A DNA stretch of 64,000 bases from positions 1,093,014 through 1,157,013 of the forward strand of contig NW_003314271.1 in the NCBI RefSeq assembly GCF_000143415.4, given 5' to 3'. Both the position numbers and the translations under genes were made by a program. Positions 6,429 through 64,000 of this stretch are shown in pieces. The notes below the pieces were generated by a model that was not told the DNA's origin, searched no databases, and saw nothing but the letters and a program-made list of their open reading frames with translations. This DNA comes from Selaginella moellendorffii. Taxonomy: Eukaryota; Plantae; Lycopodiophyta. Position 1 is the stretch's first letter; every line of letters starts with the position of its first letter.

Positions 6429-6745
6429 TTGCACGGAGATCTCACTGAAGAAAGTTTTGTCCAGCAACCAGAGGGTTACCAGAAGCAGCCTGGAATGGTT
6501 TGTCCCCTGAAGGCTCAAACAATCTCCTAAGGCTTGGTTCAACAAAATGGACAAATTTCTCACCTCTATTGGATTTTCCAGAAACGCTGCTGATCAAAAT
6601 GTATACCAGTATTGAAAAGATGATGGTCCTTATTTCTTTGTATATTGATGATTTGATCCTGGTCACAAATTGTCTTGCTTTCCTACAAATGATCAAAGAG
6701 TAGATTGATCTCGGCGATATTAAGTTCTGTCTTGGTCTTAATATC
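6429..6745 (+). mobile_element. Degenerate Ty1/copia reverse-transcriptase fragment
   Basis: Frameshifted LHGDLTEESFVQQPEGY, LKQSPKAWFNKMDKF, LYIDDLIL, DLGDIKFCLGLNI. Confidence 0.75.
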
Positions 6746-6833
6746 GGGACAATTCATTGCTCACTCACAGTGCTGTTAGGGATGAATTGTCCCAATATTA
6801 AGACCAAGACAAAACTTAATATTGCCGAGATCA
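6706..6833. repeat. Inverted repeat / hairpin with 52-bp arms and a 24-nt loop
   Basis: 6706-6757 matches the reverse complement of 6782-6833 with 3 transitions. Confidence 0.9.
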
Positions 6834-46430: not shown

Positions 46431-47214
46431 TTAGCGGGATGTAAATTCTTGAATTTGGACTTTTCGAGAGGTCATTTAGCCTAATATTATTTAAACCCAA
46501 GAACACTTAACCCCAAATATCCTAAGATTTTTAACCAATTGAAAAACAGGGTGCAAGCTCTATTTCGTTAAAGTGGGATTTATTCAGTAAAATGGGACTA
46601 GGTACAAATTTTCAAGTATTTGAAAATGACGTGAAATTATATGTTTTTTGTCCAGGGGCTAGACATATCTGGGGCATGGTGACTAGCGCGGTGACTTTGT
46701 GTCCAGACTGAGTCCATCTGGTTGTATAATAAATCTCATTGTCAAGGTGAACAAGCCGAATCTGAAGCTAAAGAAGAGCGATGGCATGCGCGCACACACT
46801 ATTTGTTTGTTCATTGAGCGTGTGGTGAGCTTTCCAAGATGAACGTCATTCCTATTAGCCAGACATATAACTTAATGGTGAGAACATTTAGATATTATTC
46901 AATGTTATCTTTTTCTAACGAATCTAATTGTGAAGGTGTAGCAAGAGGCATTGCTAGTCTGGAGAAGTCATTTAACTCATTTGACCCTTAGTGTATTTTC
47001 ATGAAACTAAATAACATTCATATTATTAAGGAATTTCTCTAGTACCTTTTTTTTACGACATAGAGGCTTGCATTTCTTTCAAAGGTGATTTAGTAAAAGG
47101 CCTGAGGGCACATGCCATTCTATTTCTCAAACCGGTATTAAGATATACTAGTGCAAAGGGAAAAAGGTATTTGGTGATCAAGTAAATGGCATGAGGGCAC
47201 ACACCATTATAAGC

Positions 47215-47472
47215 CTAAGCGCTAGTGGACACCTCCTTTTTGGTACTCTCAGCAGTACTATCATCCTTCTCCGGGTCAATTGTTTTGCTTTGGATTGTTG
47301 TCTCTGACGTTACTGGGGCGTTCTCGATAGTTGTTAATGTTGCCGTTTGTTCAGAAAAATGATCACCTGGAGTATAGTACGGGGAGTTTGGAAGACTTAT
47401 ATATTCTACATCTTCACCTATCTCCTTCTCCGTCTCCTTTTCTACCTCACTTACAGATTTTGTGCTTGCCAT
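47215..47472 (-). CDS. Small acidic Ser/Thr-rich ORF inside the transposon, unknown function
   Basis: MASTKSVSEVEKETEKEIGEDVEYISLPNSPYY...; no recognisable motif. Confidence 0.25.
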   Translation of the reverse strand: MASTKSVSEVEKETEKEIGEDVEYISLPNSPYYTPGDHFSEQTATLTTIENAPVTSETTIQSKTIDPEKDDSTAESTKKEVSTSA

Positions 47473-48199
47473 AAGAATGCTCTTCACCCTAAAATATGGA
47501 GTTCGTTGTGTTATAAAAGGAAACCAACACACACGCTGCAAGGGAATGATGGTACATAAAGCACGTAAGCCCACAATATGGGTTTATGTGCCATTAATAT
47601 GGGCCACACGCCATATTATTAGATTTATGCACGTGTGATTGGTAAATGCATATGTCACATCATCTTTGTTTTACCTCACACACTATATCAGGCCTAATGA
47701 ACAATATCACATGTGCGCACATGCTATATATATGGAGAAGTATTATGCAAGGATAGAAAAATTCAATACATGATTGTGGAGAGCAATGGCATGAAGCCAC
47801 ATGCTAAATAACATTTTAGAGAAAGAATTAAAATAAAAACATGCAAACAGTACTGAGTGGACCAAGACTTAGAAGTGCACAATTGAATGAAGTATTTCTA
47901 ATAAATATTTCACTCACCTCATATAGGAATGGCTACCACTCTCAAATGGCGTATCGCCTCATGCCATCACCTCGCAATTTGTTATAACAATCCGATGAAT
48001 TCATATTTGGCTTGTTCACCTTGAACTTTAAGTAAGATTTGCTAGAACAACTAAGAATTTATACTTGTTATTTGTATCATCTCACCTAGGAATGGCGTAA
48101 GGCCACATGCCATCACGCCTCCTCTGATTCAGATTTGGATTGTTCACCTTGAAATAAAATACATTAGAAACTTAGTAAAGGAATATTAATGAATCTCAC

Positions 48200-51095
48200 C
48201 TTGAACCCGGGTTATGAATGCTCTTGCTGCATCTCTTGCATGGTCTAGCAAGGTGATGGTGGCACTCTACTTCCGCATCCAACCATGCACAACATTATCC
48301 ACCGATATGCTCATGCTGGGATCCCTTGGATTCAGCACCCATCTCTTTTCTAGGCAATCCTTCGTATATCCGGAACTTGGCTTGAACCACTCCACAGTTA
48401 CATTGAAGGAGTTAGTTTCCACGTCCTCCTCTACATCAGTGATGCAGCGCCCCACCCATATCATTTGTTTTTTATTACTGGGTCTGACAAGCACGACCAT
48501 TCCTTTGCAGACCTGTACTGGATTGAATGCTGAATCCGGCTTTTTGTTCCTCGGCCCACAATAATGATCCTCAACATCGTTATCTATCACTGCATTTCCA
48601 GAGGACATTGTTCCGCTACTATCTGGTGCTCTGGGTTCTGGCCAAAAGGACTCTTCCAATTCTTCATATACAACCGGCCCATTTTGGATAGCAGATATAA
48701 TCTTCTCCCAGTATTCGAGCAAAGGCTTGCACCTCTGAAAATAGGATTCTCCACCAAACACCAACCCCCTCTTCCAGAAGGCAATATGCTGTCTAATCCC
48801 GGCCACTATACTTTCCTGGTCTTTGAGTCCATCCGGGTGCATCGGCCGTGGGGAACCCTGAGGAATCATAGGTTCCCCAGTTATGGGATCTCTATTGAAG
48901 AGTTCAATGCCGTCCACTGGCAGCCACACTATGTCCCATTCTCTCATCTTGTACCTCATCACTAGAGCATCGTCACGCATGCTGAAATGAAACTGAAGAG
49001 GCTTGGAGTGGCCAATCAGCGTTTCGGATCCGTCCCTGATGTAGCCTCTTACAAACCCCTTAAAGTCTGGAACCTCTGTCACAAGTGCAGCTTCAACAGT
49101 GCCTTTGATGCAATTTTGGAATTCATTGTAGAGTTGTGGGAGGGTGAGGACATTGGATCGCCGGAGGGACTTTGCCAGGTGACTGAACATGGCATCGACG
49201 TCTTCATGAGTGTGCCCAACCATGAGAAAGCCAAGTGTAACCGTTTCAAATATGCCTTTGGCAACAAGCATCGCCAAGTACGCGAAGACGTACATGTTTT
49301 TGTTCTCACTGCCAGCATTGTCTATTTGGAGCAGAAGATGGGGTGGAAGGCCACATCGGCCGCAAGAACTTCCTTGAGATTCTGCTTCGTTTTGATGAGG
49401 CTGTGCATTCACCGGGTGACCAGCCTTGTCGGAATGGCATGAGGCCTCACGTGATAACCCTACAATCTGACGGCCAACATATTCACTGGGATGGCATGGG
49501 GCCCCACGCGATACTGCAAGCCTTTGCTCCTCCTCCAGCTGAACCCTGTATGGGGTTCGATCGACAAGGGCCTTATGCAAGGGTTGGCCGTTCAGCTCAG
49601 TCTGCGCACTTTGCAGAGACCTTAAGTGTTTTGCTAGGGACGCAATCATCATGTTTGCACCCCCGCCACCCCATAGAGGTACAAAGAAGTTCCCATAGTT
49701 CTGGGCACCATGCCCATGAGCGATTATGCCAAACAGAGACACAGGCAGCTGCATGGATGAAGAGATTGCCTTGGGGGCAGGATTGAGTCGAGGTAAGCAC
49801 GTCTTTTTCTGGTCCATTTTGTCGTGGATGATGCAGAGGTAAGAGTCAGGTCTCTCCATGGAGAGAATCCTGTTATGATAATATGCAGTCCTGCAGCTTC
49901 TCTGCTCGATGTTGTGGTCGAGCCGCCTTCTAACCAACGTCTCTCGCTCTTGAGCGCTGCAAGAATTCTTCGACAAAGCCATTTTGATAGCAGTGCACTC
50001 GTCACACTTTGAAAAGCTGGAGTACTTTCCTATACTCACATCCCTGAACCTGTTGCTCCATAATCTACTAAATCTAGATTGGCTCAGCTTCCTGTAGCCA
50101 TTACTCTGGAGTTCCCGATTCACATCTTCCAATATCGCCCCCTTGGTATACATGGAAGGGAGAACTCATTGGGTGTCTCGTGTTCCATCTTCCAAGAGGC
50201 GGGTTTTATGTGGTTGCTGCTCGCTACATGTCTCGACAAACCTTTTGAAGATTGCCTCTCCATATACAACATGACCCCTGGTTTTGTGCGTACCGTCGTT
50301 CCTATGGACTGCCTGTTGAACCCTTTGTTCCTCGAACTCAGTTTTGATTCTGTAGAATGTGGTTCGAGGGACTCCATAAATGATTCTCCATGCCTTCATG
50401 CAGACCAAACCCCTCTGGAAGACCATGCCCCCCACCTGATGTTCTAAAGCATCAACAGATGACCGTAATGCCTCATACACAAAATTGCGAGCTGCCTTCC
50501 AGGACAATGTCTTATATCTTGCTCTCTCCTCTTCAATAACATCCCAATCAGCATGTTGACAGCACCTCCTCTTGCAACAAGCAACTGTCGAGACCATTCG
50601 AACCTCCATCGCCATTTTCTGCCTTTTCGGTTCGTTGCTCAGATCCCTTTGGCTGCGCTTTAGGAAGGTGTACTTTCTTTTCCCATGAAGAGATGTTCTG
50701 TCATCAGTTGTAGTGGTGTTTGATTGTGAATCCTTCACATTCTCAAACACTAAGTGCCTCAATTTCCACCGCACAATGCTTCCAATAGTCAGACTGTTTT
50801 CTTCTGTGTCAATAACCTCTAAAATCGCAACTCCAATATCATCCCAGCCCAATTCTTGATTAGCAACTACATCTCTTGGATCGACAACTGTGGCTAAGCC
50901 CTCAGCTACCACCTCCCCCTCGGGGTTGTTTAGAAACACCTTTGCCTGAATCCATGTAGCACGGTTCTTAAGATCCACGGAGGGAACATGCGTCGCACTT
51001 GCGCTGTCCCCAACATCTGCTTTCTTCTGAAGATTTTTCAAGGCAACAACAACATTTACCCCAACGACCATCTCTCCTCGTTCAATAGCGACCAC
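48200..51095 (-). pseudogene. DDD-type transposase (Sola1/DUF7869-like) interrupted by in-frame stops
   Basis: CCKRRCC, VCMKAWRIIYGVPRTTF, FSRLW...FSKCDEC, IIHDKMDQKK, LQIDNAGSENKN, FLMVGHTHEDVDAMFS. ORFs 50166-51095 and 48267-50153 are in frame across one TGA, and the frame continues past the TAG at 48267. Confidence 0.8.
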
Positions 51096-51593
51096 ATTCC
51101 CATCGAAGACAGTCTCTACTGATACACCCCAAGCCTTTGACAGTGTATAACAAAGTTCCGATCTATAGACACAAGGGTCTCTTTTGCAACTCTCTTCCCA
51201 CCATTCAAAATGTAAACCTTTTCCCCAACCCTAAAGGCCATTCTGAAAGTGCAGAAAAGAAGTTAAGACCATAAAAAAAATGATTGGAGAATGGCCTAAA
51301 TCATAACATACCAAACAACCTCAATAGCATGAGGCCACATGCCATTATTCAAACATGCTATTGACACCCACATGAAATTTCGCATTCACAAAATTGGCAT
51401 GCCATCTTGATATACACACAGCTGCAGGCAAGTAAAAACATACATGACAATACGCTAGCCATGAAATTGCAAGGGCCCAAGATGGCATGTGGCCTCATGC
51501 CATTTCTAAATGTGGTCCTAAGCCATTCCATGGTGAACATACCAGGAAGCACAAGTGCCGAATATCAAGAGGAAGTGGTAGCCACACCAAAGA

Positions 51594-51790
51594 CAGTGCC
51601 GCTCACAACACCGCAACTACTCGTAGCACCGCTCGCAACACCGCAACTGCTCGTAGCGCCGCTCGCACAAACTGCCACTCGCATAAACTGCCGCTCGCAA
51701 TGGCGCTCGCAATGCCGCAACCGCTCGTAGATGCATAAACCACAGCTCACAACGCCGCTTACACAAGCAGCGCTCACTGCGCTCAGCGGA
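51594..51790. repeat. GC-rich minisatellite (30-bp unit GCCGCTCGCAACACCGCAACTGCTCGTAGC and derivatives)
   Basis: Two near-identical units at about 51600-51660 followed by degenerate CCGCTCGCA units. Confidence 0.7.
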
Positions 51791-52522
51791 ACCAAGAACA
51801 CGGCGCACAAAAATGATAGACCTAGGAATGAGTTCGAGAATTCAAAAATAACACACGCTTGAACGTCACATCAAATCCTCTGACAAACCAGACCTTATGA
51901 TTCCTCTGACAAATTTCAAATTGAGTAGCTTCTAGACTTTGCTGTCGGACGTTGAACTTTGTCACATTATGTCCTTGCCTCGATCCAGCTGTGCCATGTC
52001 AGTGATTCGAACTTTGCTATGCCATGTCAGCGATCCGCGCCAAAATTATTCGCTGTGTAAAGGAATAATTATGCTGTGTGTGTACGTCCATTTATGGCAA
52101 TATAAGGCCACACGCCATTCAAAGAATAATGTTAGTCGAGCATTTTTTGGTGCATTTTTGGGTTCAAAATTGCATGAGCCCACACGCTATAAAGTTTACC
52201 TGTACCAAAAATAGAAACAGCTTTATTTACTTGGGAATTTAAGTGGTTGAGGCATTTTTTTACAAACACATGCCCTACTTACATTCCTTTGGTTGCTTAA
52301 AATTCAAAAATATTATAAACCTTTCTTTTTGCATTTTCAATGTTTTCAATTATGGTTTTTGATTTTCGCAGGACCAGCCTAGTAATCTATTTGCATCCCA
52401 TCATGTTTATAGCTAGCTTTCGTTTGTCCCCTTCGCTAGCCTGAGATACATCTGCTCGGCATCTGCCTCTTACAGCATTTGCCCAGAAAGGGCATCTTTC
52501 TTCACGCAGCATTTGCCACATG

Positions 52523-52550
52523 TTTAGGGTTTAGGGTTTAGGGTTTAGGG
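52523..52550 (+). repeat. Interstitial plant telomere repeat (TTTAGGG)4
   Basis: Read directly. Confidence 0.95.
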
Positions 52551-53398
52551 TTTAACAATTCAGTAGCTTGATAAACATGCAAATACAGAACTTGATGCAA
52601 AATCCTTTGATATGTCACAATGCCCCTAGGACTATAAACACATTTCAATAGAGAGGTCCTTTCATTTCATAACTCCTTACGTAGATCTTGGTGAAACCAA
52701 AGTTAGTGAAGTTAGTTTCTTGTGATCCCGCATCTGATTGTGATGTCCCTTTGCAGTGTCGATGGAAAGGTCAATGCACACCAAACTGTAAAATCTTGGA
52801 GCAAAATAACGGTCGGATCTATGGCAAATGCCCCTGAAACATTGTAAGGCTCGTGTGGTCTCATGTGATGTCCGATCGAGATGCTTCTTTGCAGGGTCAT
52901 CAAGAAAGACATTGTATACCATTCTGTAAAATCTAGTTGCGATCTAACGGTTGGATCTCCAGAAAACTAAAAAAAATCTCGCGCGTGTCAGAATATTCTA
53001 GGAATATACTCCTATGTGCCCCTGAAAATGGCATGCGGCCCCACGCCATTCAAGAGATAACGCCAGATGACGCCAAGCATTTTTTGGTGCATTTTTTGGG
53101 ATCAAAATTGCATGAGCCCACACGCTTGAACGTCACATCAAATCCTCTGATAAACTAGATCTTATAATTCCTCTGACAAATTTCAAACTGAGTAGCTTCT
53201 AGACTTTGCTGTCGGACGTTGAACTTTGTCACATCATGTCCTTGCCTCGATCCAGCTGTGCCATGTCAGTGATTCGAACTTTGCCATGCCATGTTAGCGA
53301 TCCGCGCCAAGATTATTTGCCGTGTAACTGCTCGGCATCTGCCTCTTACAGCATTTGCCCAGAAAGGGCATCTTTCTTCACGCAGCATTTGCCACATG

Positions 53399-53431
53399 TT
53401 TAGGGTTTAGGGTTTAGGGTTTAGGGTTTAG
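53399..53431 (+). repeat. Interstitial plant telomere repeat (TTTAGGG)4, second copy
   Basis: Read directly; part of the internal duplication. Confidence 0.95.
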
Positions 53432-54453
53432 CAATTCAGTAGCTTGATAAACATGCAAATACAGAACTTGATGCAAAATCCTTTGATATGTCACAATGCC
53501 CCTAGGACCATAAACACATTTCAATAGAGAGGGTCCTTTCATTTCATAACTCCTTACGTAGATCTTGGTGAAACCAGAGTTAGTGAAGTTGGTTTCTTGT
53601 GATCCCGCATCTGATTGTGATGTCCCTTTGCAGTGTCGATGGAAAGGTCAATGCACACCAAACTGTAGAATCTTGGAGCAAAATAACGGTCGGATCTATG
53701 GCAAATGCCCCTGAAACATTGTAAGGCTCGTGTGGTCTCATGTGGTGTCCGATCGAGATGCTTCTTTGCAGGGTCATCAAGAAGGACATTGTATACCATT
53801 CTTTATTTAGCTGAACATCTGGCATTTTTGGAAATACAAGATGCTTTGGAATATCCAATCATGCATGGTATAAATATAGCGAGGGTATTAAATGATATCC
53901 CAATCATGATCTTTCTTTTGGATTTCGCGTGTATGCAGTCCGAGGAATGATGACGTTGCGGATTTCTTTTGGATTTCACTTGCATGCATGCGTGCGGCGA
54001 TCTAGAAATTAATGGTGGCGCCCAAGTCCGAGGAATGATGACGTTGCGGGATTACCAACCGTCGTGACATTTCGCGCGTGTGAGGTTAGGTTTTGCATTT
54101 TGCTTCGTACTCGCGCTCGCACACTCGCGCTCCCACTCGTGATCACGCTCACATTTGCGCTCATCTACCTTCTCTACAGGTTTCTCGTGTGCATCGGCGT
54201 CCACTCGCGCTTGCATCACACTCGCGCTCGTGTGCATCGGCGTCCACTTCAAGACACACCCAGTTTGTAACTTCGCCGCCAACTCCGCTGCCCACTCCGC
54301 CACCCACACGTAGCCCACTTGGCGTCCCGGGAGATTTCAGCGCCACTCTCCAACTGTAAGTGGCAGAGTAGCCTTGCTGCTACGATCTGCTGCACACAGT
54401 GCATATTCGCCAGCGAGTCCGGCCTTGATTGTCACGCCTCCATTCGGCTTCAA

Positions 54454-57400
54454 ATGGTAAGTCTTTTAGGCCAAGTAGAAAATGGCATGAGGCCACATGC
54501 CATTCAGTAGCAACATTGGCATGCACCGATTGGGCTCTCGAGTGCAGTCCGGTTACAGATGGCGTGTAGCCTCATGCCATCTTAGGATGCAGCCTCAAGA
54601 CATCTGATGTAGTGGTGAATGGCGTGTGGCCTCACGTTATTTCCAGCTGCTAACTTTTCATCTGTCAGCTCTAATTGTTGTGCATTTCTGAACAGGCGAG
54701 GAATTGCGTTCTTCTTCCAGCCACTGTCAATGTGGATGCAGAGAAGGGGGAGGAGCTCATCAGTTGGACTTTCGGGATGGAAGGCGAGGATCTGAGGCTG
54801 TACAACACAGATGGTGGGAGAAAAGAATGCATGGGGATCCTCATCCAAGTGACAGACACTCCATGCAGTTCCATGCAAGAATATAGATTGGCACTTGTGG
54901 TAGAGATAGCGTCCGCCTTCAAGATCCACCTTGCACATCCTAGCGGCTTCCCGGAGGGGGGAGCGGCTATGAGGAATTCCTAGAGGGAGCTAGGGAGAGG
55001 TTGTCCAGGAGGCCCACAATTTCAAAGACGCTGCGGGTCTATGAAGATCACATGGAATCCACGGACCTCACCTACGGCGATGTTCAAAAACTATATTCCA
55101 ACATTGAGCCATTGAGAGTGACTCCAGTTCGCGAAGCGAAGGGGAAGGGGGTCGATCTGGAAACTACCCCGAAGCAGAAAAGGGTGGTCAAGCTCAAGCC
55201 GACGTCTGACTCTCCTGCTCCAAAAAAGAAGCTACTCGGTGATGCCATTGCCTCGGGTTCGAACACTACACCCACCAAAAAGAAGAGCCGCAAAGAGCAG
55301 AAAGAGCAAGAAGAGGCAGCAAAAATCGTCGCAGATAATAGTACTTGTTACTATTCCAACAAAGTATATACAATCGACGTGAGCCACATCGACATCCAAA
55401 GCAAATACAACCACAGACTAGTATCTGATGAGTGGGTGGAGAAACTGAAGCAGAAGATGCTAGCAAGTCCAGTAACACCCGACATCGCAGACATGATCCC
55501 CTACTACCGAACAATGAAGGGCGAGACGAGGTTTCCAGACTTGATCAATAGAAAGGTGTTGGACGATCAGAACATCCGGTTCTATGCCGTCTCCGGGCAG
55601 CATTCTAGCTTGGCGATGCAAGAGATAGTTGTGGATATTATGGTGGGCGAGGAGGTGAAGAAAGTCTTCAAGACAAGAGTTGTCCACCTGATAAAAGGCA
55701 ACTCGCCCCTCCGATCTATCATATACATCTCCCACGCGCAGAATGTCAAGCAAGAAACGTGCTACAAATCGGGTGAGACATTAGCACGAACACGGAAGAT
55801 CTGGGTTCAACTGAAGAAGCCACAAAAACCAGGACAAGGACGTGCACTAGCAACTAGCGCCTGGCAGGTAAGCCTCGTTGCATGTGGCATAGCATGTGGC
55901 CTCATGCCATTTCCATTGCAGGAATTCTCGAGTCTTCTCTTGAAAACACTGGGGGTCAATGACACACTCAGCATCCATAACATTCTACTCGCGACAAAAG
56001 TTGTTTTTGACAAATGGGTAGATGTGTTGAGGAGGTACCATGACGGGGAGTTGCTAAACTCAATGGGTGTGGAGGACGGCCGGAAGCCCAATGATTTGAA
56101 GCTCAACGCCTTGCGTTTCTCGCGGTCTCTAGACGACGACGACCTTCTGACAGTGGCTAATGCTCTTCTACGTGGTGAGGTAGTCTTCAACAAGACCAAA
56201 ATGACTCCCGGCCATATTGTGACATACGAGGACTTGTGCACGACTTTGAGAGCTCGTGCGCTATTGAAGGATTGGATCTTCGAGCAAGTGGCCATGGAGA
56301 GGGTGAGCATCAACACCACGCAAGAGATGATGGAAGAGCTGGAGTTGTCAAATGAAGACATCGACGACTACGTGAAGGGGGCCCCCAAGTTCATCGATCT
56401 ACTACGGGATGCCACGAAAAGTAAAGCTGAGAAGTTGGATCAGTATCCAAATTTCATTAAGAGGGATGTCGACCGCCGGCTTCAGAAACAGCTCGACCCC
56501 GCAGCAGAGGCCTATCGAGAACCTTACCGGGTATATGTGAATTCGGATGAGGATCAAAGGTGGAGGAGCATCGTTTCTCACGGAGATGAGTAGGTCAAGA
56601 ACATCTTTTGTGTGATGGACTTCACAAACGAGGAGATCACTCATGCAGACGAAATCAGCTCCATCATTGACTTAATGGTGGGACTTGCGGAGGTGGAATC
56701 TTCAGTCCACTATATGATCTACGACTCCGAATCCTATCACAAGTTCTGGAAGGCCTTGAACGAGGTGAAGGCTCGGTTGAAAGGCAAGGAGATGCGGGAG
56801 ATCTATGGGATAATGGCTAAGAAGAAGATACCGACGAATGTCCGCATCTTCACACTTGCCCTTGTTATTGGTCCTGCAGCAGAGTGGGACTGGAGTGACT
56901 TCCCAGCTTCGTTCGACAAGGCCAATCGAATTGATCTGAGGGAGGTCAATTTACCCGTGCCTGAGGAACTGAAGACGGCTATAGAGCTTTCGAATCCAGA
57001 GAAAGCTCCAGGTGCAGCATGGGAAATGCTCAGCTGGGTCTTCAACGCAATAGCGGGTGGGTCACCTGCTTCCAACTCCAAGAGCAAATGCATTGTCGAG
57101 TACAACTGCGGTGGACTATTCTTTCGAGCCGCACTACTCAAGGGTGTCCCGTGTGTTGCGGTGACAAACTCCATTGAAGAGGTGACTTCAATGGAGCATA
57201 TAATTACAGTTGCCAAAGAAAAACAGTATCTTCTCTACGAACCTGGTGAGTACGCACTTTAAGTTTAAATGTTATCTCACAAGCTCTGTATGCAGGAGCG
57301 TGGCCACCCCCAGATGCTGAAATGGCGTTAACAGCTACTGTTGAAGATACCCATGTTGGGCCGAGCTCACAACCTGCACAAGGTAAGGTCATGTGAAGCC

Positions 57401-60400
57401 TCACGCCATTTTGATTATAGATCATTGTGAATATTCAGACACGAGGACTGAAAAGCGCACTGGTGGCGCGTCGAAGAAGGACAAACAGACAAGCAATAGG
57501 AAAAAAGGAGGTACAAATTATATTTGCAATGGCGTGTGGTCTCATGCCATTCCTTGCAAGAGACACTTCTTCAAAGGCAAAACAGGCAAGCATCAGCCAA
57601 GTACAACAGACGAGAGGTACCAATCATTTTGTTATACGTGAATTCTCATGCCATTGCTTCTTGCAGCTTAAATTCCAAAGAGACTAGGGCAAGCAGCGCA
57701 GACCTCATGACAAGAACCTGAAGGTTTGATGGCATGTGGCCCCACGCAATTAACTAATGTTCTTGCAGATCGCGTCGAGGAAATCGAATGGAACAACGTG
57801 CCTCCAGTGGAGGAGGGGGAGGCCTCGGAGAGTGATAAGGAGAGTTCCGAAACAGGTACGATCATGACATATGGCCCCATGCACTTATCTAAGTTTGTAT
57901 TTTAGGGGAACGAGTTGAACCAATGGAAAACTTTATGAAAGGTAACTTAAAAATATTATGGGATGTTGCATGTGTTGATGCAATAATATATAGTTCAAGT
58001 GCCAAGGAGACGTCGTGAACCTCGAATTAGGCTACATGCAAAACAGCTTTCAGACGCTGTAGACAAAGAGATGGACAACCAACTAGGGCAAAGGAGGAAG
58101 GGTAAAAGCATTTGTGTGCTTATCGCGTATGTCCTCATGCTATTTCTATAGAACGGGCGCATAAAAAACGAAAGCGAAAGGGAATTGAGGAGCAGGCACC
58201 TGAGGATGCGGAAGGCACGACAGAGCCTCCAAGGACGGGAAGTAAAGCGTCATGGTTATTGCGTGGGTCCTCATGCCATTTCTTGCAGATCAAGCTCAAA
58301 CTGACAGTGGTCATAAAAAGCGAAAGCATGTTGGACAATCGTCGGGATCAGAGGCGTTTGATTCGAAAAGGAAGAAGGGCAACGAAAAGATGATAGGTAA
58401 TGCCTCGCGGTTATGGCGTGTGTGCTCATGCCATTCATTGCAGATCAAGGGCTGAGTGAAAGCAGCCAGTCACCACCTCCTGACTCAGATTCCTATGGCG
58501 GACTCCCCTTCCCCAATCTCAATGGAGAGGTACAATGGATGAGGGATGCTTTTCAAGTCAGGGCCACATTTTTCTCATCTCGTCGTCTTCGAAGGGTGCA
58601 AGAACGTGCAAAAACCATGTTAAGACAGTCGGGTGAGGATACGGTCCTAGGTCACGCACTAAAACAGGCTATGGATGTCTTGTATTTTGAGATGGAGACT
58701 CGGCCAGATGATTTTCCCAAGATGGTCCTGGAAGAACAAGCCATCCAGCCTGAGCAGCCTATGGAAGAAATGCAGGAGGGGGATGAGGAGCCAGAGAAAG
58801 ATAATGAGCAGGAAGAGCAGAAGGACGAAGAGGAGGACAAAGAAGAGGAGGACGAAGAAGAGGAGGACGAAGAGGACTTGGATGGTCCTCACAATGGTGA
58901 CGATCACAATAACGACGACGACGATGATGACGACGATGGCCAGCCTGAGGTGGCCAAAGAGCAACGGAGGAAGGTTATACAAGACAAACCATCAGGTAAA
59001 TAATAGTACATCCATTCCTAACCTTTTACCATTTCTAACATTGTCCATGTAGGTTGCAAAGCAAATGGTAAGTAGAGATTATTCAGTTGAATTAAGATAC
59101 AAACTCTAGCCTTTAGTGTCGAGGAAGGATAGTGCCAAGCAAGGGTCGAAACGTATGTCCAATCCTTCAGAATCAGCAGTGTGCCCAAGTGATATCGGTC
59201 CTAGTTCCTCAATAGCAGTTGATGGTAAATACAGTATAGTCGATTCAATGTGCTAATGAGTTTGTTTTTAGTAGCCAGTAGGGAGGATACCATCTCAATT
59301 GAAGGGAGATATTTGGACATGCATATGGATTCGCCAGTGGACTCTACTTGCCTGCAAGAGTCATCAGAGCTGGTGGAGGCTACTATCCATATCAACGCCA
59401 AGCAAGCTGACCACGCTCCACTTGATGCTGCCCATACCACTGAGTCAATCTTGTCCACGTATCCAACTGACGGTGACCAGGCGCCATTGGACCCGCATGA
59501 GGCCGCCCCAGCCGCCGAGCCGGTCGTATCCTCATTTCCAACGGACTCAACGTGTGCCCAATCGTCTGACTACGTGCCGTTGGAACCTCCCTACACCGCC
59601 CCTGCTGCCTGTTCGGTCATGTCCACTTTGCCAATGGAGGCACCAGCTGAAATGGTGTGTGATCACACGCCATCGGAACCACCCCATGCCACTGTTGAGC
59701 CAGTTGTACTAGAGTCTACAGCTGAAATGGCATGTGCCCACACGCCATCGGATGCGATTGACCCCACATTGCAGAGGAGAGTATTTCCGCCCTTCATGTT
59801 TCCTTGACCAAAACCCTCTCAACGACCATCGGGAGCACCATTCGCTAATATTGTAGATGGTAAAATTGACTTGTACCATTTTTTATGCTGACGCATTTCA
59901 TTTCAGAGTCACAGCGAAAGTACTGTATCATTTTTTATCTGAACGGTGTCCTTTTCTCCCATGAGCGTGGCTCGTCCTCGAATGTCACTGCACCCTCCAA
60001 AGCCTGTGGTCGCAAGTTGGTCAAAAGAGACAGATTCACATTAATCACACGGGAGAAACTGCGGGATCTAATAATGACCATGCGACACTTAAAATAGAGG
60101 GCCGGGTTCAATTTGCAATTGGGAGTTTGGACATCCATGATGCGCCACAATGCATTAACGTTGCTACAGATGATGCACGATCAGACGCGAGTAATATTAC
60201 CATTTGACTTTCTCCTAACGCAGGAGGATTGCTTGACTATGGTCCATGTGAGGGGTAGCAAGCCCATCTTCATCAAGCCAGAGGCTGTAGTGATGAACCG
60301 GACTGCTAGGTCAAGTGAAATCCTCATCATCGATGACTCACCGATTAAAACTGCAGCGAACACGCACACATATGCAGTGCACCCCATCTCTTGCAGTATG

Positions 60401-60769
60401 GAAACTAGGGAGAAGAAACCGTATGTTCTGGGGGACCTTGCAAAACGGCTTGGAGCAATGGTGATAGAGAACCGGCCAGTCCAGGAGGTGGCTGCAGAAA
60501 TCAACCAAATGGCAGATGGAACGGTATATCAGAAGCCATTTGATCGGACAGACACCAGTCATCATTTATGGCATGTATATTGTCTAGCCAAGCACTATCC
60601 GCATCTCCATAATCTGCTCAACCGGATGGGTTCTTCGACCACTGAACATGAGCATGGACGTATTAGAGAAGAGATGGCATTACTATTGGGTTTAAATCCT
60701 GATAGTGTGGAGAGTGATGAAATTCCAAGATTATTGTATAGGCGTTGGAGGCAAAAAATAACAGTTTGA
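54454..60769 (+). pseudogene. Transposon cargo gene: ParB/Srx-like domain + degenerate N4/N6 DNA-MTase-like fold + disordered/acidic region + FCP1/NIF-like HAD domain; multi-exon and disabled
   Basis: IDVSHID...HRLVSDEWVEKLK...FYAVSGQHSSLA (ParB-like); PEKAP...CIVEYNCGGLFFRAALLKGVPCVAV (MTase-like); IIFYLNGVL...GVWTSM...TQEDC...ILIIDDSPIK (NIF-like). Linked by GT-AG introns of about 50 nt; in-frame stops at 56591, 59805, 60095 and a frameshift near 54958. Confidence 0.6.
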
Positions 60770-61211
60770 GATGGCATGTATTTATTTTAAAATGTAACTT
60801 ATTATGGCATGGGGTTCCATGCCATTGTATTAATATTAAAAGACAATTCTTTGAGAGGATTTGCATTATACTAGAAGTGTTACAACATGTTATTGGAAGT
60901 CTACGAAGTTGTTTTATTAATAATGGGAAAGTAAAGATTGAATGGGGACTTGGGCTCCACCTAGACTCGGAGCAACTGAGCCAATATTAAAAGGATGGAA
61001 AGAAATTGGACGACGATGACAAGGAGAAGAGAGAGGTGAAGCAGTGGCAGGGGGAGGAGAAGTGATTGAGTAGACATTTCCTTGTTTAAAATAAAATGGC
61101 ATGTGCCTCAATGCAGTTGAATTTTGTTATATTTATATACTATATAAAGGTTTAGAAACCTTATTTTACAAGTGGGATAATGACAATTCCCACTTTAACG
61201 AAATAGAGCTT

Positions 61212-62938
61212 TGAACGAAATTATACCACCACCGAGAAAGAAGCTCTCGGCATGATCTACTCACTTCAGAAGTTCCAACACTACATACTGTCAACCAAAG
61301 TCATCCTTTTCGTCAACCACAAAGCACTCCTTTACCTCATCAACAAGCCGATACTATCTGGTTGAATATCAAGATGGTTCCTTTTAGTACAAGAATACAA
61401 CTTCGAGATTGTCCACAAACCCGGCAAAAATCATGAGCAAGCAGACTATCTCAGCCGGATCACCACTGGTGACAAACCTAAAAGACTTACCGATGACTTA
61501 CCCGACTCAAACCTATTCCAAGTTTCAATACCAACAACCTGGCTCGACGACGTCTTCAGTTACCTGAACTCAGCAAAAGTTCCAGATCAGTACTTTACGT
61601 CCGACCAAAAGAAGACTTTTGTTGCTAAAACGCGACGATACTCAGTCATCGGAGGCACTCTCTACAAACTCAGAATTGACAACATTCTTCGCCGATGCAT
61701 CAAGCTGCCAAGCACAACTCAAATCATCAAGGAAGCTCACGATGGACCTTCCAGCAGACACTTTGCCGCTGACACCACAACTTGGAAGATTCTTCAAGCC
61801 AGCCTCTGGTGGCCGACACTCTGGCATGACACTGAAGAATTCTGCAAATGCTGCAACACATGTCAATGACACCAATTACCGCCAAAAACTCAAACTCAAC
61901 AACTCAACCCAACATTCCCAATGGCACCATTTCAGAAATGGGGACTCGACTTCGTCGGACCCCAAGTCAGGACCCATCGACGAAATCAGTACATTGTCAT
62001 CACCACCGATTACACTACCAAGTGGGCCGAAGCAATACCTCTCCAACATGCCACAGTGAAAGCAACAGCAACCTTCATCTACGAAAATATCATCACTCGT
62101 TTCGGCACACCACTCGAACTCGTCACCGACAGAGGCACCCACTTCATCAATGAAACAATCGAACATCTCGCCACCAACTTCAAATCCGACACAAAACGTC
62201 AACACCATACTATCCTCAAGGTAGCGGTCAAGCAGAAGCAACAAACAAAACACTGAAGACCATCCTCAAAAAAGTCATCAACGATTCTGGCAAAGACTGG
62301 GACGATAAACTTCTCGACATACTTTGGGCCTATTGAACTGCTTATAAGGTCAACACCGACATGACACCATTCAAACTCGCCTTCGGAACAGAAGCCATCA
62401 CGCCAATCAAATTCATCGTCCCAAGCATGCAAGTCACCGTCAAGTATAATCTCGACACCCGACATGCAATTCGAGAAAGGCTTCAGCAACTCGAACATCT
62501 CGATGAACTCTGACTCAATGCCCTCTGGACACTTCACGCCATCCAAAAACAGAGAAAAGCTCAGCACGACCGACAAGCATCCTGGCACAACATTCCCAAA
62601 TACAGTGTCGACGATCATGTTCTCTGGTACCGAGGACCCATTGGCAAACTTGGCCGAAAACTCCACACCAAATGGCAAGGACCTTTCAAAATCATTGAAC
62701 TATACCCCAACGGCACTGCCAAAGTCAGCACACTCGCTGAAGACTTCATTGAGATTGTCAACAGCTTCGACCATATCACGTCGACATGTTCAGCATCAGC
62801 ACCTCAGCAAATTTCCGATCCAAACCGATAAACACCCCAAAACCAACAATCGACAATCACCCCGGCAGACAAAATTTAACTCAAATCAGTTCGACACAAC
62901 AACTTGACTCAACACTAACTCATCCACCAACTTCAGCA
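61212..62938 (+). mobile_element. Ty3/gypsy RNase H-integrase fragment
   Basis: ERNYTTTEKEALGMIYSLQKF, ADYLSR, HHCC zinc motif, PFQKWGLDFVGP, DYTTKWAEA, IITRFGTP...TDRGTHF; frameshifted. Confidence 0.88.
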
Positions 62939-64000
62939 AAGCTCTATTTCGTTAAAGTGGGAATTGTCATTATCCCACTTGTAAAATAAGGTTTCCAAAC
63001 CTTTATATAGTATATAAATATAACAAAATTCAACTGCATTGAGGCACATGCCATTTTATTTTAAACAAGGAAATGTCTACTCAATCACTTCTCCTCCCCC
63101 TGCCACTGCTTCACCTCTCTCTTCTCCTTGTCATCGTCGTCCAATTTCTTTCCATCCTTTTAATATTGGCTCAGTTGCTCCGAGTCTAGGTGGAGCCCAA
63201 GTCCCCATTCAATCTTTACTTTCCCATTATTAATAAAACAACTTCGTAGACTTCCAATAACATGCTGTAACACTTCTAGTATAATGCAAATCCTCTCAAA
63301 GAATTGTCTTTTAATATTAATACAATTGCATGGAACACCATGCCATAATAAGTTACATTTTTAAATAAATACATGCCATCTCAGACTGTTATTTTTTGCC
63401 TCCAACGCCTATACAATAATCTTGGAATTTCATCACTCTCCACACTATCAGGATTTAAACCCAATAGTAATGCCATCTCTTCTCTAATACGTCCACGCTC
63501 ATGTTCAGTGGTCGAAGAACCCATCCGGTTGAGCAGATTATGGAGATGCGGATAGTGCTTGGCTAGACAATATACATGCCATAAATGATGACTGGTGTCT
63601 GTCCGATCAAATGGCTTCTGATATACCGTTCCATCTGCCATTTGGTTGATTTCTGCAGCCACCTCCTGGACTGGCCGGTTCTCTATCACCATCGCTCCAA
63701 GCCGTTTTGCAAGGTCCCCCAGAACATACGGTTTCTTCTCCCTAGTTTCCATACTGCAAGAGATGGGGTGCACTGCATATGTGTGCGTGTTCGCTGCAGT
63801 TTTAATCGGCGAGTCATCGATGATGAGGATTTCACTTGAGCTAGCAGTCCGGTTCATCACTACAGCCTCTGGCTTGACGAAGATGGGCTTGCTACCCCTC
63901 ACATGGACCATAGTCAAGCAATCCTCCTGCGTTAGGAGAAAGTCAAATGGTAATATTACTCGCGTCTGATCGTGCATCATCTGTAGCAACGTTAATGCAT
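62939..64000 (-). mobile_element. Right end of a second, inverted copy of the large TIR transposon (runs off the window)
   Basis: Starts AAGCTCTATTTCGTTAAAGTGGGA and is a near-identical reverse complement of 60150-61211, including the NIF-like ORF (63381-63989). Confidence 0.93.

What the first reader, a model, noticed from the sequence alone, without database searches (positions are those of the whole stretch)
54457..58443. One palindrome per intron across the cargo gene
Predicted introns 55868-55921, 57383-57439, 57511-57559, 57617-57667, 57724-57768, 57856-57906, 58102-58150, 58242-58288 and 58397-58443 are each about 45-57 nt and each holds one copy of the palindrome. The first intron (54457-54695) holds three, and 57942-57993 has only a degenerate trace. 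The rest of the intron sequence is diverged. Inference: the introns let binding sites be spaced every ~100-150 bp through a coding region without altering the protein. Alternatively the introns arose by exon-intron tandem duplication or are introner-like insertions.
Basis: partly seen in the sequence, partly recalled or inferred. Interest (0 to 1): 0.85.

Follow-up and report, generated by a model that had tools for sequence, protein, structure and literature searches.

The report
Transposon docking sites parked in introns
A broken copy of a plant jumping gene carries one 22-letter palindrome throughout its length, including in 10 of the 16 predicted introns of its passenger gene, and these are likely docking sites for a protein the element makes, a variant of a design already described in algae and Arabidopsis.

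Summary
Real, but not one palindrome per intron. The gene lies in a 14.6-kb Sola-like (DUF7869) DNA transposon, likely of a clubmoss. The palindrome ATGGCRTG-N6-CAYGCCAT is confined to the element (24 copies at ≤2 mismatches, 0.06 expected). It sits in 9 of 15 short introns (0.03 expected) and three times in intron 1; six short introns lack it and four copies are in coding sequence. No RNA read showed splicing. The introns rest on 13 of 13 internal exons being multiples of three and on a RefSeq homologue lacking exactly intron 2. A distant relative has intron 2 without the motif, so that intron is no introner. Arms show 0 compensatory changes, which favours a DNA site over a hairpin. In 6 of 9 introns the right arm sits at the branch-point position. 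In one DNA sample the dominant form skips six of these introns in frame, so dense spacing looks dispensable. The passenger protein has an amino-methyltransferase fold lacking the catalytic motif, plus weak ParB-like and NIF-phosphatase matches. The layout is published (Ectocarpus Sola1-1; VANDAL/VANC) and this scan found it before on other DNA. Verdict: new variant of a known kind.

The parts
46560..61206 (.). Sola-like DNA transposon, 14,647 bp; 19-bp terminal inverted repeats (46560-46578, 61188-61206), each abutting AGCT (4-bp target duplication or part of the repeat, not resolved)
   Evidence: all motif copies with ≤2 mismatches lie here or in the second copy
48267..51239 (-). Transposase gene (DUF7869, three invariant Asp motifs), broken by an in-frame stop at 50166; likely continues into small 3' exons near 48085-48260
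   Evidence: Pfam E=2e-43; 62 homologues; tblastn with relatives; Asp columns 24 of 24; 3' exons inferred
54454..60769 (+). Predicted accessory (cargo) gene, 17 exons / 16 introns, about 1,777 codons; this copy has a frameshift near 54955 and several stops
   Evidence: family contigs differ from the window at the frameshift and at the 56591 stop
54457..54695 (+). Intron 1 (239 nt, right after ATG) with three palindromes (54482, 54559, 54619)
   Evidence: GT-AG and open frame in exon 2; not seen spliced
55340..55867 (+). ParB/Srx-like region (motif SGQHS); lead only
   Evidence: hhalign 73.6%, 48 columns, against motif-selected phage DGQHR proteins; no Pfam, PHROG, NCBIfam or PDB match
55868..55921 (+). 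Intron 2 (54 nt, phase 0), palindrome at 55889; old intron position
   Evidence: RefSeq XP_024528744.1 lacks exactly these 18 aa; L001 has an intron at the same codon boundary without the motif
56510..57245 (+). Beta-class N6A/N4C DNA methyltransferase fold; catalytic (D/N/S)PP(Y/F) motif not present
   Evidence: top 10 VIA rows are amino-MTases, best Z 8.5, rmsd 5.7, 165 aligned; relative L001 hits PF01555 E=8e-4 and PHROG E=5e-6; alignment
57246..57295 (+).
57383..58443 (+). Array of nine 45-56-nt phase-1 introns (57383-57438, 57511-57559, 57617-57666, 57724-57768, 57856-57905, 57942-57993, 58102-58151, 58242-58288, 58397-58443); eight hold one palindrome (57388, 57529, 57633, 57729, 57864, 58122, 58258, 58413); exons 36-108 nt, low-complexity peptides
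57598..58290 (+). 693-bp block (six introns, five palindromes) skipped in frame by the dominant form; 4-nt CAAG microhomology at the ends
   Evidence: joint at depth 140 and 98.8, block depth 4.3-9.4 against 83-133 on the flanks, two runs of one sample; frame and motif count
58996..59906 (+). Four further phase-1 introns without palindrome (58996-59052, 59068-59116, 59225-59271, 59860-59906); two exonic palindromes at 59652 and 59727
59907..60769 (+). Last exon, NIF/FCP1-like HAD phosphatase-like domain (weak), one stop
   Evidence: PF03031 E=0.0015, below the curated cut-off
46781..53128 (.). Further palindromes outside the cargo gene: 3' and subterminal region (46781-48092), transposase CDS (49434, 49491), upstream of the transposase ORF (51324, 51482), intergenic (52169, 53028, 53107)
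62944..64000 (-). Right end of a second, inverted copy of the element (11 differences in 1,064 nt)

Best explanation
The palindromes lie throughout a Sola-like transposon and are likely double-stranded DNA docking sites for a paired protein that the element encodes, most likely its ParB-like/methyltransferase-fold accessory protein, which would let the element recognise and likely reactivate its own copies. Shown: the motif is confined to the element, biased to non-coding DNA, and has no compensatory changes between arms. Inferred: (1) sites collect wherever they cost no amino acids, so short introns are preferred but loops and low-complexity exons are also used; (2) the phase-1 intron array arose through old duplication and loss of intron-plus-exon units in the low-complexity tail, while intron 2 is older than the motif and was colonised; (3) in six introns the right arm (CTCAY) doubles as the branch point, so splicing adds a second constraint that would hold the site in place; (4) the methyltransferase fold is probably inactive, so the protein would act as a reader or scaffold rather than a writer; (5) the purpose is local site density for anti-silencing, as with VANC, not an exact ruler.
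For: Confinement and excess: 24 copies at ≤2 mismatches against 0.06 expected, none in 1-46559. Intron bias: 12 of 14, p=3e-9. No hairpin signal: 0 of 33 deviating pairs compensated and 0 pairs with changes on both sides among 29 copies. Gene model: 13 of 13 internal exons are multiples of 3, 11 of them open in one frame; a RefSeq homologue lacks exactly intron 2. Old intron without motif in L001. Branch-point overlap: CTCAY with its A 14-18 nt from the 3' end in 6 of 9 motif introns, the same distance (14-16) as YTVAY in 5 of 6 motif-free introns; CT before the right arm in 6 of 6 such copies against 8 of 24 others, p=0.005. Spread with flanks: pairs 58258/58413, 46781/48092 (inverted), 52169/53107. 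Accessory protein fold. Published parallels: ParB+MTase gene opposite the transposase in Sola1-1_Ec32 (PMC12477816); inverted-repeat arrays next to a ParB-like gene in Plavaka (10.1101/2025.02.11.637652); VANC motifs in introns with gain and loss by tandem repeats (PMC5735166).
Against: No binding, methylation or expression data. No splice joint in 3 raw RNA runs (about 12% of each read) or in 3 contig runs guessed to be RNA; their few pieces were unspliced. The ParB-like assignment is weak and motif-biased and no library confirmed it. The methyltransferase part of the model has pLDDT mostly under 60 and Foldseek found nothing at E≤0.001. The dominant form lacks 5 of the 14 gene copies, and four intronic copies carry 3-4 mismatches, so some sites look dispensable or decaying. 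The branch-point copies may not be independent if they arose by duplication. The only relative with DNA (L001, 2 kb) shows no clear palindrome of its own in two introns, so co-evolution of site and protein was not shown.
Confidence: 0.55

Rival explanations
1. The sites are real DNA docking sites, but the binder is the transposase or a host transcription factor (the half-site GCCAT resembles a YY1-type core, recalled from memory, not tested), not the accessory protein.
For: Copies also cluster near both ends (46781-48092, 60804, 61096). Transposases and TnpA proteins bind clustered motifs and activate their own copies (10.64898/2026.08.24.746577, passages). The ParB-like match is weak.
Against: The motif is absent from the 19-bp terminal repeats and runs through the whole interior. 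It is essentially absent from 46 kb of neighbouring host DNA (0 copies at ≤2 mismatches), which is unlike a general host site.
Confidence: 0.2
2. The pattern is a by-product: one intron that happened to contain the palindrome was copied by tandem exon-intron duplication, and only splicing signals (branch point, 3' site) keep part of it.
For: 14 consecutive phase-1 introns and symmetric exons; residual likeness of 58242/58397. Right arm 85% against left arm 62% identity. Units are lost in blocks.
Against: Exons are unrelated (mean z 0.17 over 55 pairs, best 3.1) while both arms stay recognisable. The same motif occurs in at least 16 places outside cargo introns, on both strands and in coding sequence. 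Intron 2 is phase 0, old, and gained the motif. Five phase-1 introns have no motif.
Confidence: 0.13
3. The palindrome acts as an RNA hairpin that hides the branch point and throttles splicing, a self-limiting switch.
For: It overlaps the branch-point position. The few RNA-run contigs are unspliced. Some introns fold at -14 to -16 kcal/mol.
Against: 0 compensatory pairs, below all 500 shuffles; A-C mismatches in 9 of 28 copies. Copies also lie in intergenic DNA. The unspliced contigs may be DNA.
Confidence: 0.06
4. The introns are introner-like insertions of a 50-bp mobile unit, or are not introns at all.
For: Similar length (45-57 nt) and an internal palindrome; no spliced read seen.
Against: No shared ends beyond splice signals and 32-46% flank identity. 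Intron 2 is shared with distant relatives. The motif is found without intron ends elsewhere. Frame logic and the RefSeq homologue support splicing.
Confidence: 0.06

Closest known systems
Sola1-1_Ec32 of Ectocarpus (PMC12477816; passages and supplement rows seen)
   Same: Large Sola-type element with 4-bp target duplication; accessory gene on the strand opposite the transposase encoding ParB-like plus N4C/N6A methyltransferase domains; proposed to bind and modify its own sequence.
   Different: Here the methyltransferase lacks the catalytic motif, a NIF-like domain follows, terminal repeats are 19-24 bp (282 bp there), and palindromes sit in short introns; the passages seen describe no such motif. 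Direct sequence comparison was not possible.
VANDAL/VANC anti-silencing system of Arabidopsis (PMC5735166, passages and section 9; PMC10398659, passages)
   Same: Accessory gene; short motif enriched in introns and other non-coding parts of the element; gain and loss of motif-bearing repeats among copies; variable exon-intron structure tied to tandem repeats.
   Different: VANDAL is Mutator-like, VANC has DUF1985/DUF287 domains and binds a 9-bp non-palindromic motif in tandem arrays. Here the site is a dispersed 22-bp palindrome, one per short intron, and no function is tested.
Plavaka elements of Bostrychia with PAG2/PAG3 (10.1101/2025.02.11.637652; passages seen)
   Same: ParB-like accessory protein next to arrays of inverted repeats; N6A-methylase accessory gene; self-binding proposed.
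   Different: Different transposon superfamily; domains in separate genes; arrays adjacent to the gene rather than spread through introns.
Beta-class amino-methyltransferases (M.MboIIA, CcrM, M.PvuII, rotifer N4CMT)
   Same: Fold and motif order of the 56510-57245 region.
   Different: About 10% identity; DPPY-type motif absent in the window and in the 11 aligned relatives where covered.

Membership tests
Sola superfamily | DDD transposase | tested here: met
   Asp in HDKMD, QxDN and GHTHxDxD invariant in 24 of 24 aligned proteins; that these are the catalytic triad is inferred; DUF7869 match. Definition from PMC10741241 (passage).
Sola superfamily | 4-bp target site duplication and terminal inverted repeats | tested here: inconclusive
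   19-bp repeats found; all 3 ends abut AGCT, but the left and right flanks are not one continuous target, and no empty site was available.
Sola superfamily | Similarity to a reference Sola1 transposase | not testable with these tools
   No reference sequence held; original paper not held. Relatives include moss, liverwort and, weakly, Ectocarpus proteins.
ParB-methyltransferase accessory proteins of transposons | Amino-methyltransferase fold | tested here: met
   (partly through relative L001)
ParB-methyltransferase accessory proteins of transposons | ParB/Srx-type N-terminal domain | tested here: inconclusive
   hhalign 73.6% to motif-selected proteins that weakly hit GmrSD_N/DndB; other libraries blank
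Active N6A/N4C DNA methyltransferases | Catalytic (D/N/S)PP(Y/F) motif after strand 4 | tested here: not met
   Window reads CVMDFTN, relatives ICDANS, IADLRR, VLDATT; motif definition recalled
VANDAL/VANC | Mutator-like transposase and DUF1985/DUF287 VANC protein | tested here: not met
   Pfam gives DUF7869 and neither VANC domain
VANDAL/VANC | Motif enriched in introns and non-coding regions, varying among copies | tested here: met
VANDAL/VANC | Protein binds the motif and removes silencing marks | not testable with these tools
   needs binding and methylome experiments
Introner elements | Near-identical introns at new positions, absent from relatives | tested here: not met
   flanks 32-46% alike; intron 2 shared with L001; host genes genome-wide not searched (no genome held)
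Spliceosomal introns | Removal from mRNA | tested here: inconclusive
   no joints, but almost no coverage in RNA runs; indirect support

The most novel reading that the evidence does not exclude
The element has fused its self-recognition site with the branch point of its own introns. Each 50-nt intron plus a symmetric exon is a cassette that adds or removes one docking site without breaking the frame, and splicing locks the site in. A catalytically dead ParB-methyltransferase-phosphatase protein loads on these sites like ParB on parS and licenses transcription of its own family.
Probability: 0.22. Interest if true: 0.78.

Novelty: new variant of a known kind. Interest (0 to 1): 0.5.

Why it matters
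Sequence-specific self-activation by transposons has been tested only in Arabidopsis families; the ParB-methyltransferase version is so far a prediction. This element gives a sharp candidate site (22 bp, 20+ copies, none in flanking host DNA), a candidate binder and a natural deletion variant, so the prediction can be tested directly in a non-seed plant. If the branch-point overlap is functional, it would be a clear case of one sequence serving both a DNA-binding and a splicing code, and a route by which selfish DNA multiplies introns.

Tried and rejected
RNA evidence: no listed holder was on record as RNA. Raw RNA runs X8-X10 gave 197, 119 and 253 laid reads, nearly all on a 40-nt rRNA-like patch, with no joints. 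Contig runs X1, X12 and X20 gave unspliced pieces only. This is no evidence for or against splicing. No genome is held, so copy counts, empty sites and host introns could not be examined. A host-intron control for branch-point distance found only 5 candidates (1 with the signal) and is uninformative. Homologue searches for the cargo protein: none among longer proteins, none with alignment A2, five weak hits among representatives. Single-sequence fold failed (pLDDT 31). Foldseek gave no match at E≤0.001. PDB sequence searches were uninformative. The Atlas gave only a sub-0.9 methyltransferase lead for a homologue. No transposase relative in viral contigs; one cargo relative in metagenome contigs. 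Rfam found nothing credible in the element. RNA hairpin rejected as main function. An in-frame intron around the two transposase-CDS palindromes was considered; relatives have a variable loop there, so it was left as coding. Literature searches (listings only unless stated) returned 0 papers for DUF7869 and 0 for ParB+methyltransferase+transposon+Selaginella; I did not search for 'branch point', so the overlap is not shown to be absent from print. Four look-ups of Sola/DDE classification papers were not held, and one guessed id was an unrelated paper. bioRxiv supplements were not seen and may describe the Plavaka repeats in more detail.
Full report
Setting. The window is plant DNA: a PPR-DYW gene, TTTAGGG tracts, and a best cargo-protein hit in Selaginella moellendorffii. 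An earlier scan note on this genome also calls it a clubmoss. The finding lies in a 14,647-bp element, 46560-61206, bounded by 19-bp inverted repeats that each abut AGCT. The right end of a second, inverted copy starts at 62944 (11 differences in 1,064 nt). The element holds two divergent genes: a DUF7869 transposase on the minus strand (E=2e-43; Asp motifs invariant in 24 of 24 relatives) and the cargo gene on the plus strand.

The motif. ATGGCRTG-N6-CAYGCCAT occurs 24 times with at most 2 mismatches, against 0.06 in shuffles; 23 copies are in the element, one in the second copy, none in the first 46.5 kb. The spacer is also near-palindromic (G in 47 of 52 half-sites). A stricter 22-mer gives 17 matches against 0 in 100 shuffles.

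Checking the introns. Seven of 11 listed introns have the right ends and four are off by one base. With corrected ends the gene runs from 54454 to 60769 in 17 exons, about 1,777 codons. All 13 internal exons from 57296 to 59859 are multiples of three, 11 of 13 are open in the same frame, and the 14 introns from 57246 on are all phase 1. Boundaries were picked mainly on splice signals, with two choices helped by frame (57559, which ends in AA here, and 59271, where 59274 also fits). Independent support exists for intron 2: the RefSeq protein XP_024528744.1 reads WQEF where the window has 18 extra residues, and relatives' genomic ORFs stop or start at the same boundary. RNA gave no verdict: no joints and almost no coverage in three raw RNA runs and three contig runs.

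Motif and introns. Nine of 15 short introns hold one copy (0.03 expected), intron 1 holds three, and six short introns hold none or a trace. Twelve of the gene's 14 copies are intronic (p=3e-9). Two are in a proline-rich exon and two more in a variable loop of the transposase. So introns are preferred but neither necessary nor sufficient. Identity among the nine introns is 62% (left arm), 59% (spacer), 85% (right arm), 32-46% in the rest and about 30% in flanking exons; exon pairs show no general likeness (mean z 0.17, 55 pairs).

DNA site or hairpin. Of 33 arm pairs that deviate from consensus none is compensated, and the R and Y positions vary independently. Among 29 copies no pair changes on both sides, fewer than shuffles give. 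Deviations are mostly G>A and C>T (20 of 38), as expected from decay of methylated DNA (inference). This fits a site read on double-stranded DNA by a paired protein.

Branch point. In 6 of 9 motif introns the palindrome ends 8-12 nt before the acceptor, which puts CTCAY with its A 14-18 nt from the 3' end. Five of 6 motif-free short introns have YTVAY at 14-16 nt. All 6 such copies have CT before the right arm, against 8 of 24 others (p=0.005; copies may not be independent). The branch-point consensus is recalled knowledge and the host control was too small. I infer that the right arm doubles as the branch point, which would explain its higher conservation.

History. Relative L001, an AT-rich metagenome contig, has a 101-nt intron at the same codon boundary as intron 2 (WK|SF against WQ|EF) with no motif (best 8 mismatches), and a phase-1 intron after the methyltransferase region. 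Intron 2 is thus older than the motif or lost it in that lineage; it is not a fresh insertion. Elsewhere the motif did travel with its flanks (46781/48092 inverted, 52169/53107, 58258/58413). In two DNA-like runs of one sample, contigs join 57597 to 58291 at depth 140 and 98.8, while the skipped 693 bp has depth 4.3-9.4 against 83-133 on the flanks. The skip is in frame, has a 4-nt microhomology, and removes six introns and five motif copies. Caveats: one sample, short side 26 nt, letters between not known, and contig depth is not a copy number. I infer that most copies lack the block and that it was deleted from an older long form, because its motif copies are among the most decayed. Dense spacing is then dispensable for spread, at least in a family that may be mobilised in trans. 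The same contigs lack the window's frameshift and its 56591 stop, and differ from the window almost only by transitions, so this copy is decayed.

The candidate binder. The 56510-57245 region has a beta-class amino-methyltransferase fold: the top ten structural rows are all N6A/N4C enzymes (best Z 8.5, rmsd 5.7, 165 aligned), from a model with mean pLDDT 60 and lower in this part; L001 hits PF01555 (E=8e-4) and a PHROG methyltransferase (E=5e-6). The catalytic DPPY-type motif is missing in the window and relatives. The region before intron 2 has an SGQHS motif and aligns weakly with DGQHR-type ParB/Srx proteins (73.6%, biased by how the templates were picked). The last exon resembles NIF/FCP1 phosphatases (E=0.0015).

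Comparison with what is known. Ectocarpus Sola1-1_Ec32 has the same two-gene layout with a ParB-like plus methyltransferase accessory protein, proposed to bind and modify its own element (PMC12477816, passages and supplement rows). Red-algal Plavaka elements have inverted-repeat arrays beside a ParB-like gene (10.1101/2025.02.11.637652, passages). VANC binds short motifs in introns and other non-coding parts of VANDAL, with gain and loss through tandem repeats and variable exon-intron structure (PMC5735166, passages and section 9; PMC10398659, passages). Dense motif clusters also direct TnpA (10.64898/2026.08.24.746577, passages). Other papers seen as passages only: PMC10741241, PMC4738411, PMC6839031, PMC9033089. 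Earlier scan notes report the same design with palindromes in at least three other genomes; they are unchecked leads, and one led me to the Ectocarpus paper.

Verdict. The pattern is real and far beyond chance, but overstated as one per intron, and splicing and binding remain unobserved. It works most likely like VANC or ParB-parS self-recognition (0.55), is probably a Sola-type element (target duplication unresolved), and is not a VANDAL. What is distinctive here is the placement at branch points of symmetric phase-1 intron cassettes, the in-frame loss of a six-intron block, and an apparently inactive methyltransferase with a NIF-like tail. New variant of a known kind; interest 0.5.

Noticed in passing
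window 54353-54392: A 40-nt patch just upstream of the cargo start codon matches very abundant RNA reads (119-253 laid per run) whose loose ends look like the 3' part of large-subunit rRNA (recalled; Rfam did not flag it). Possibly a captured rRNA fragment in the 5' UTR.
   Followed up: partly
window 52452-53805: The region between the two divergent genes holds a duplicated unit of about 480 bp (98-99% alike), each with a short TTTAGGG tract, plus a 209-bp duplication. Telomere-like tracts near promoters may act as telo-boxes (recalled).
   Followed up: no
window 46740-46802 and 47940-48150: A small exon-plus-palindrome unit at the transposase 3' end appears in tandem and once inverted near the left end (30 of 40 flanking bases alike for 46781/48092).
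   Followed up: partly
window 60150-64000: Two copies of the element sit tail to tail around a 1.7-kb Gypsy RNase H/integrase fragment; the left flank of the first copy is different retroelement DNA, suggesting a rearrangement.
   Followed up: no
P0063/P0068 (S. moellendorffii LOC9650508): A 449-aa annotated gene matches the helical and methyltransferase-like part of the cargo protein without the low-complexity tail; it may be a domesticated or truncated relative.
   Followed up: no
L001:219-319 and 1911-1994: The relative's intron 2 holds a duplicated 27-nt AT-rich stretch, with a weaker third copy in the next intron; could be that lineage's own motif or chance in AT-rich DNA.
   Followed up: no
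window 54575 and 55905: Family contigs read CACG where the window has CATG in two right arms, so arms contain CpG that decays; binding could be sensitive to methylation.
   Followed up: no
window 6706-6833: A 59-bp inverted repeat with 90% complementarity and a 10-nt loop in host DNA, MITE-like or a hairpin RNA.
   Followed up: no
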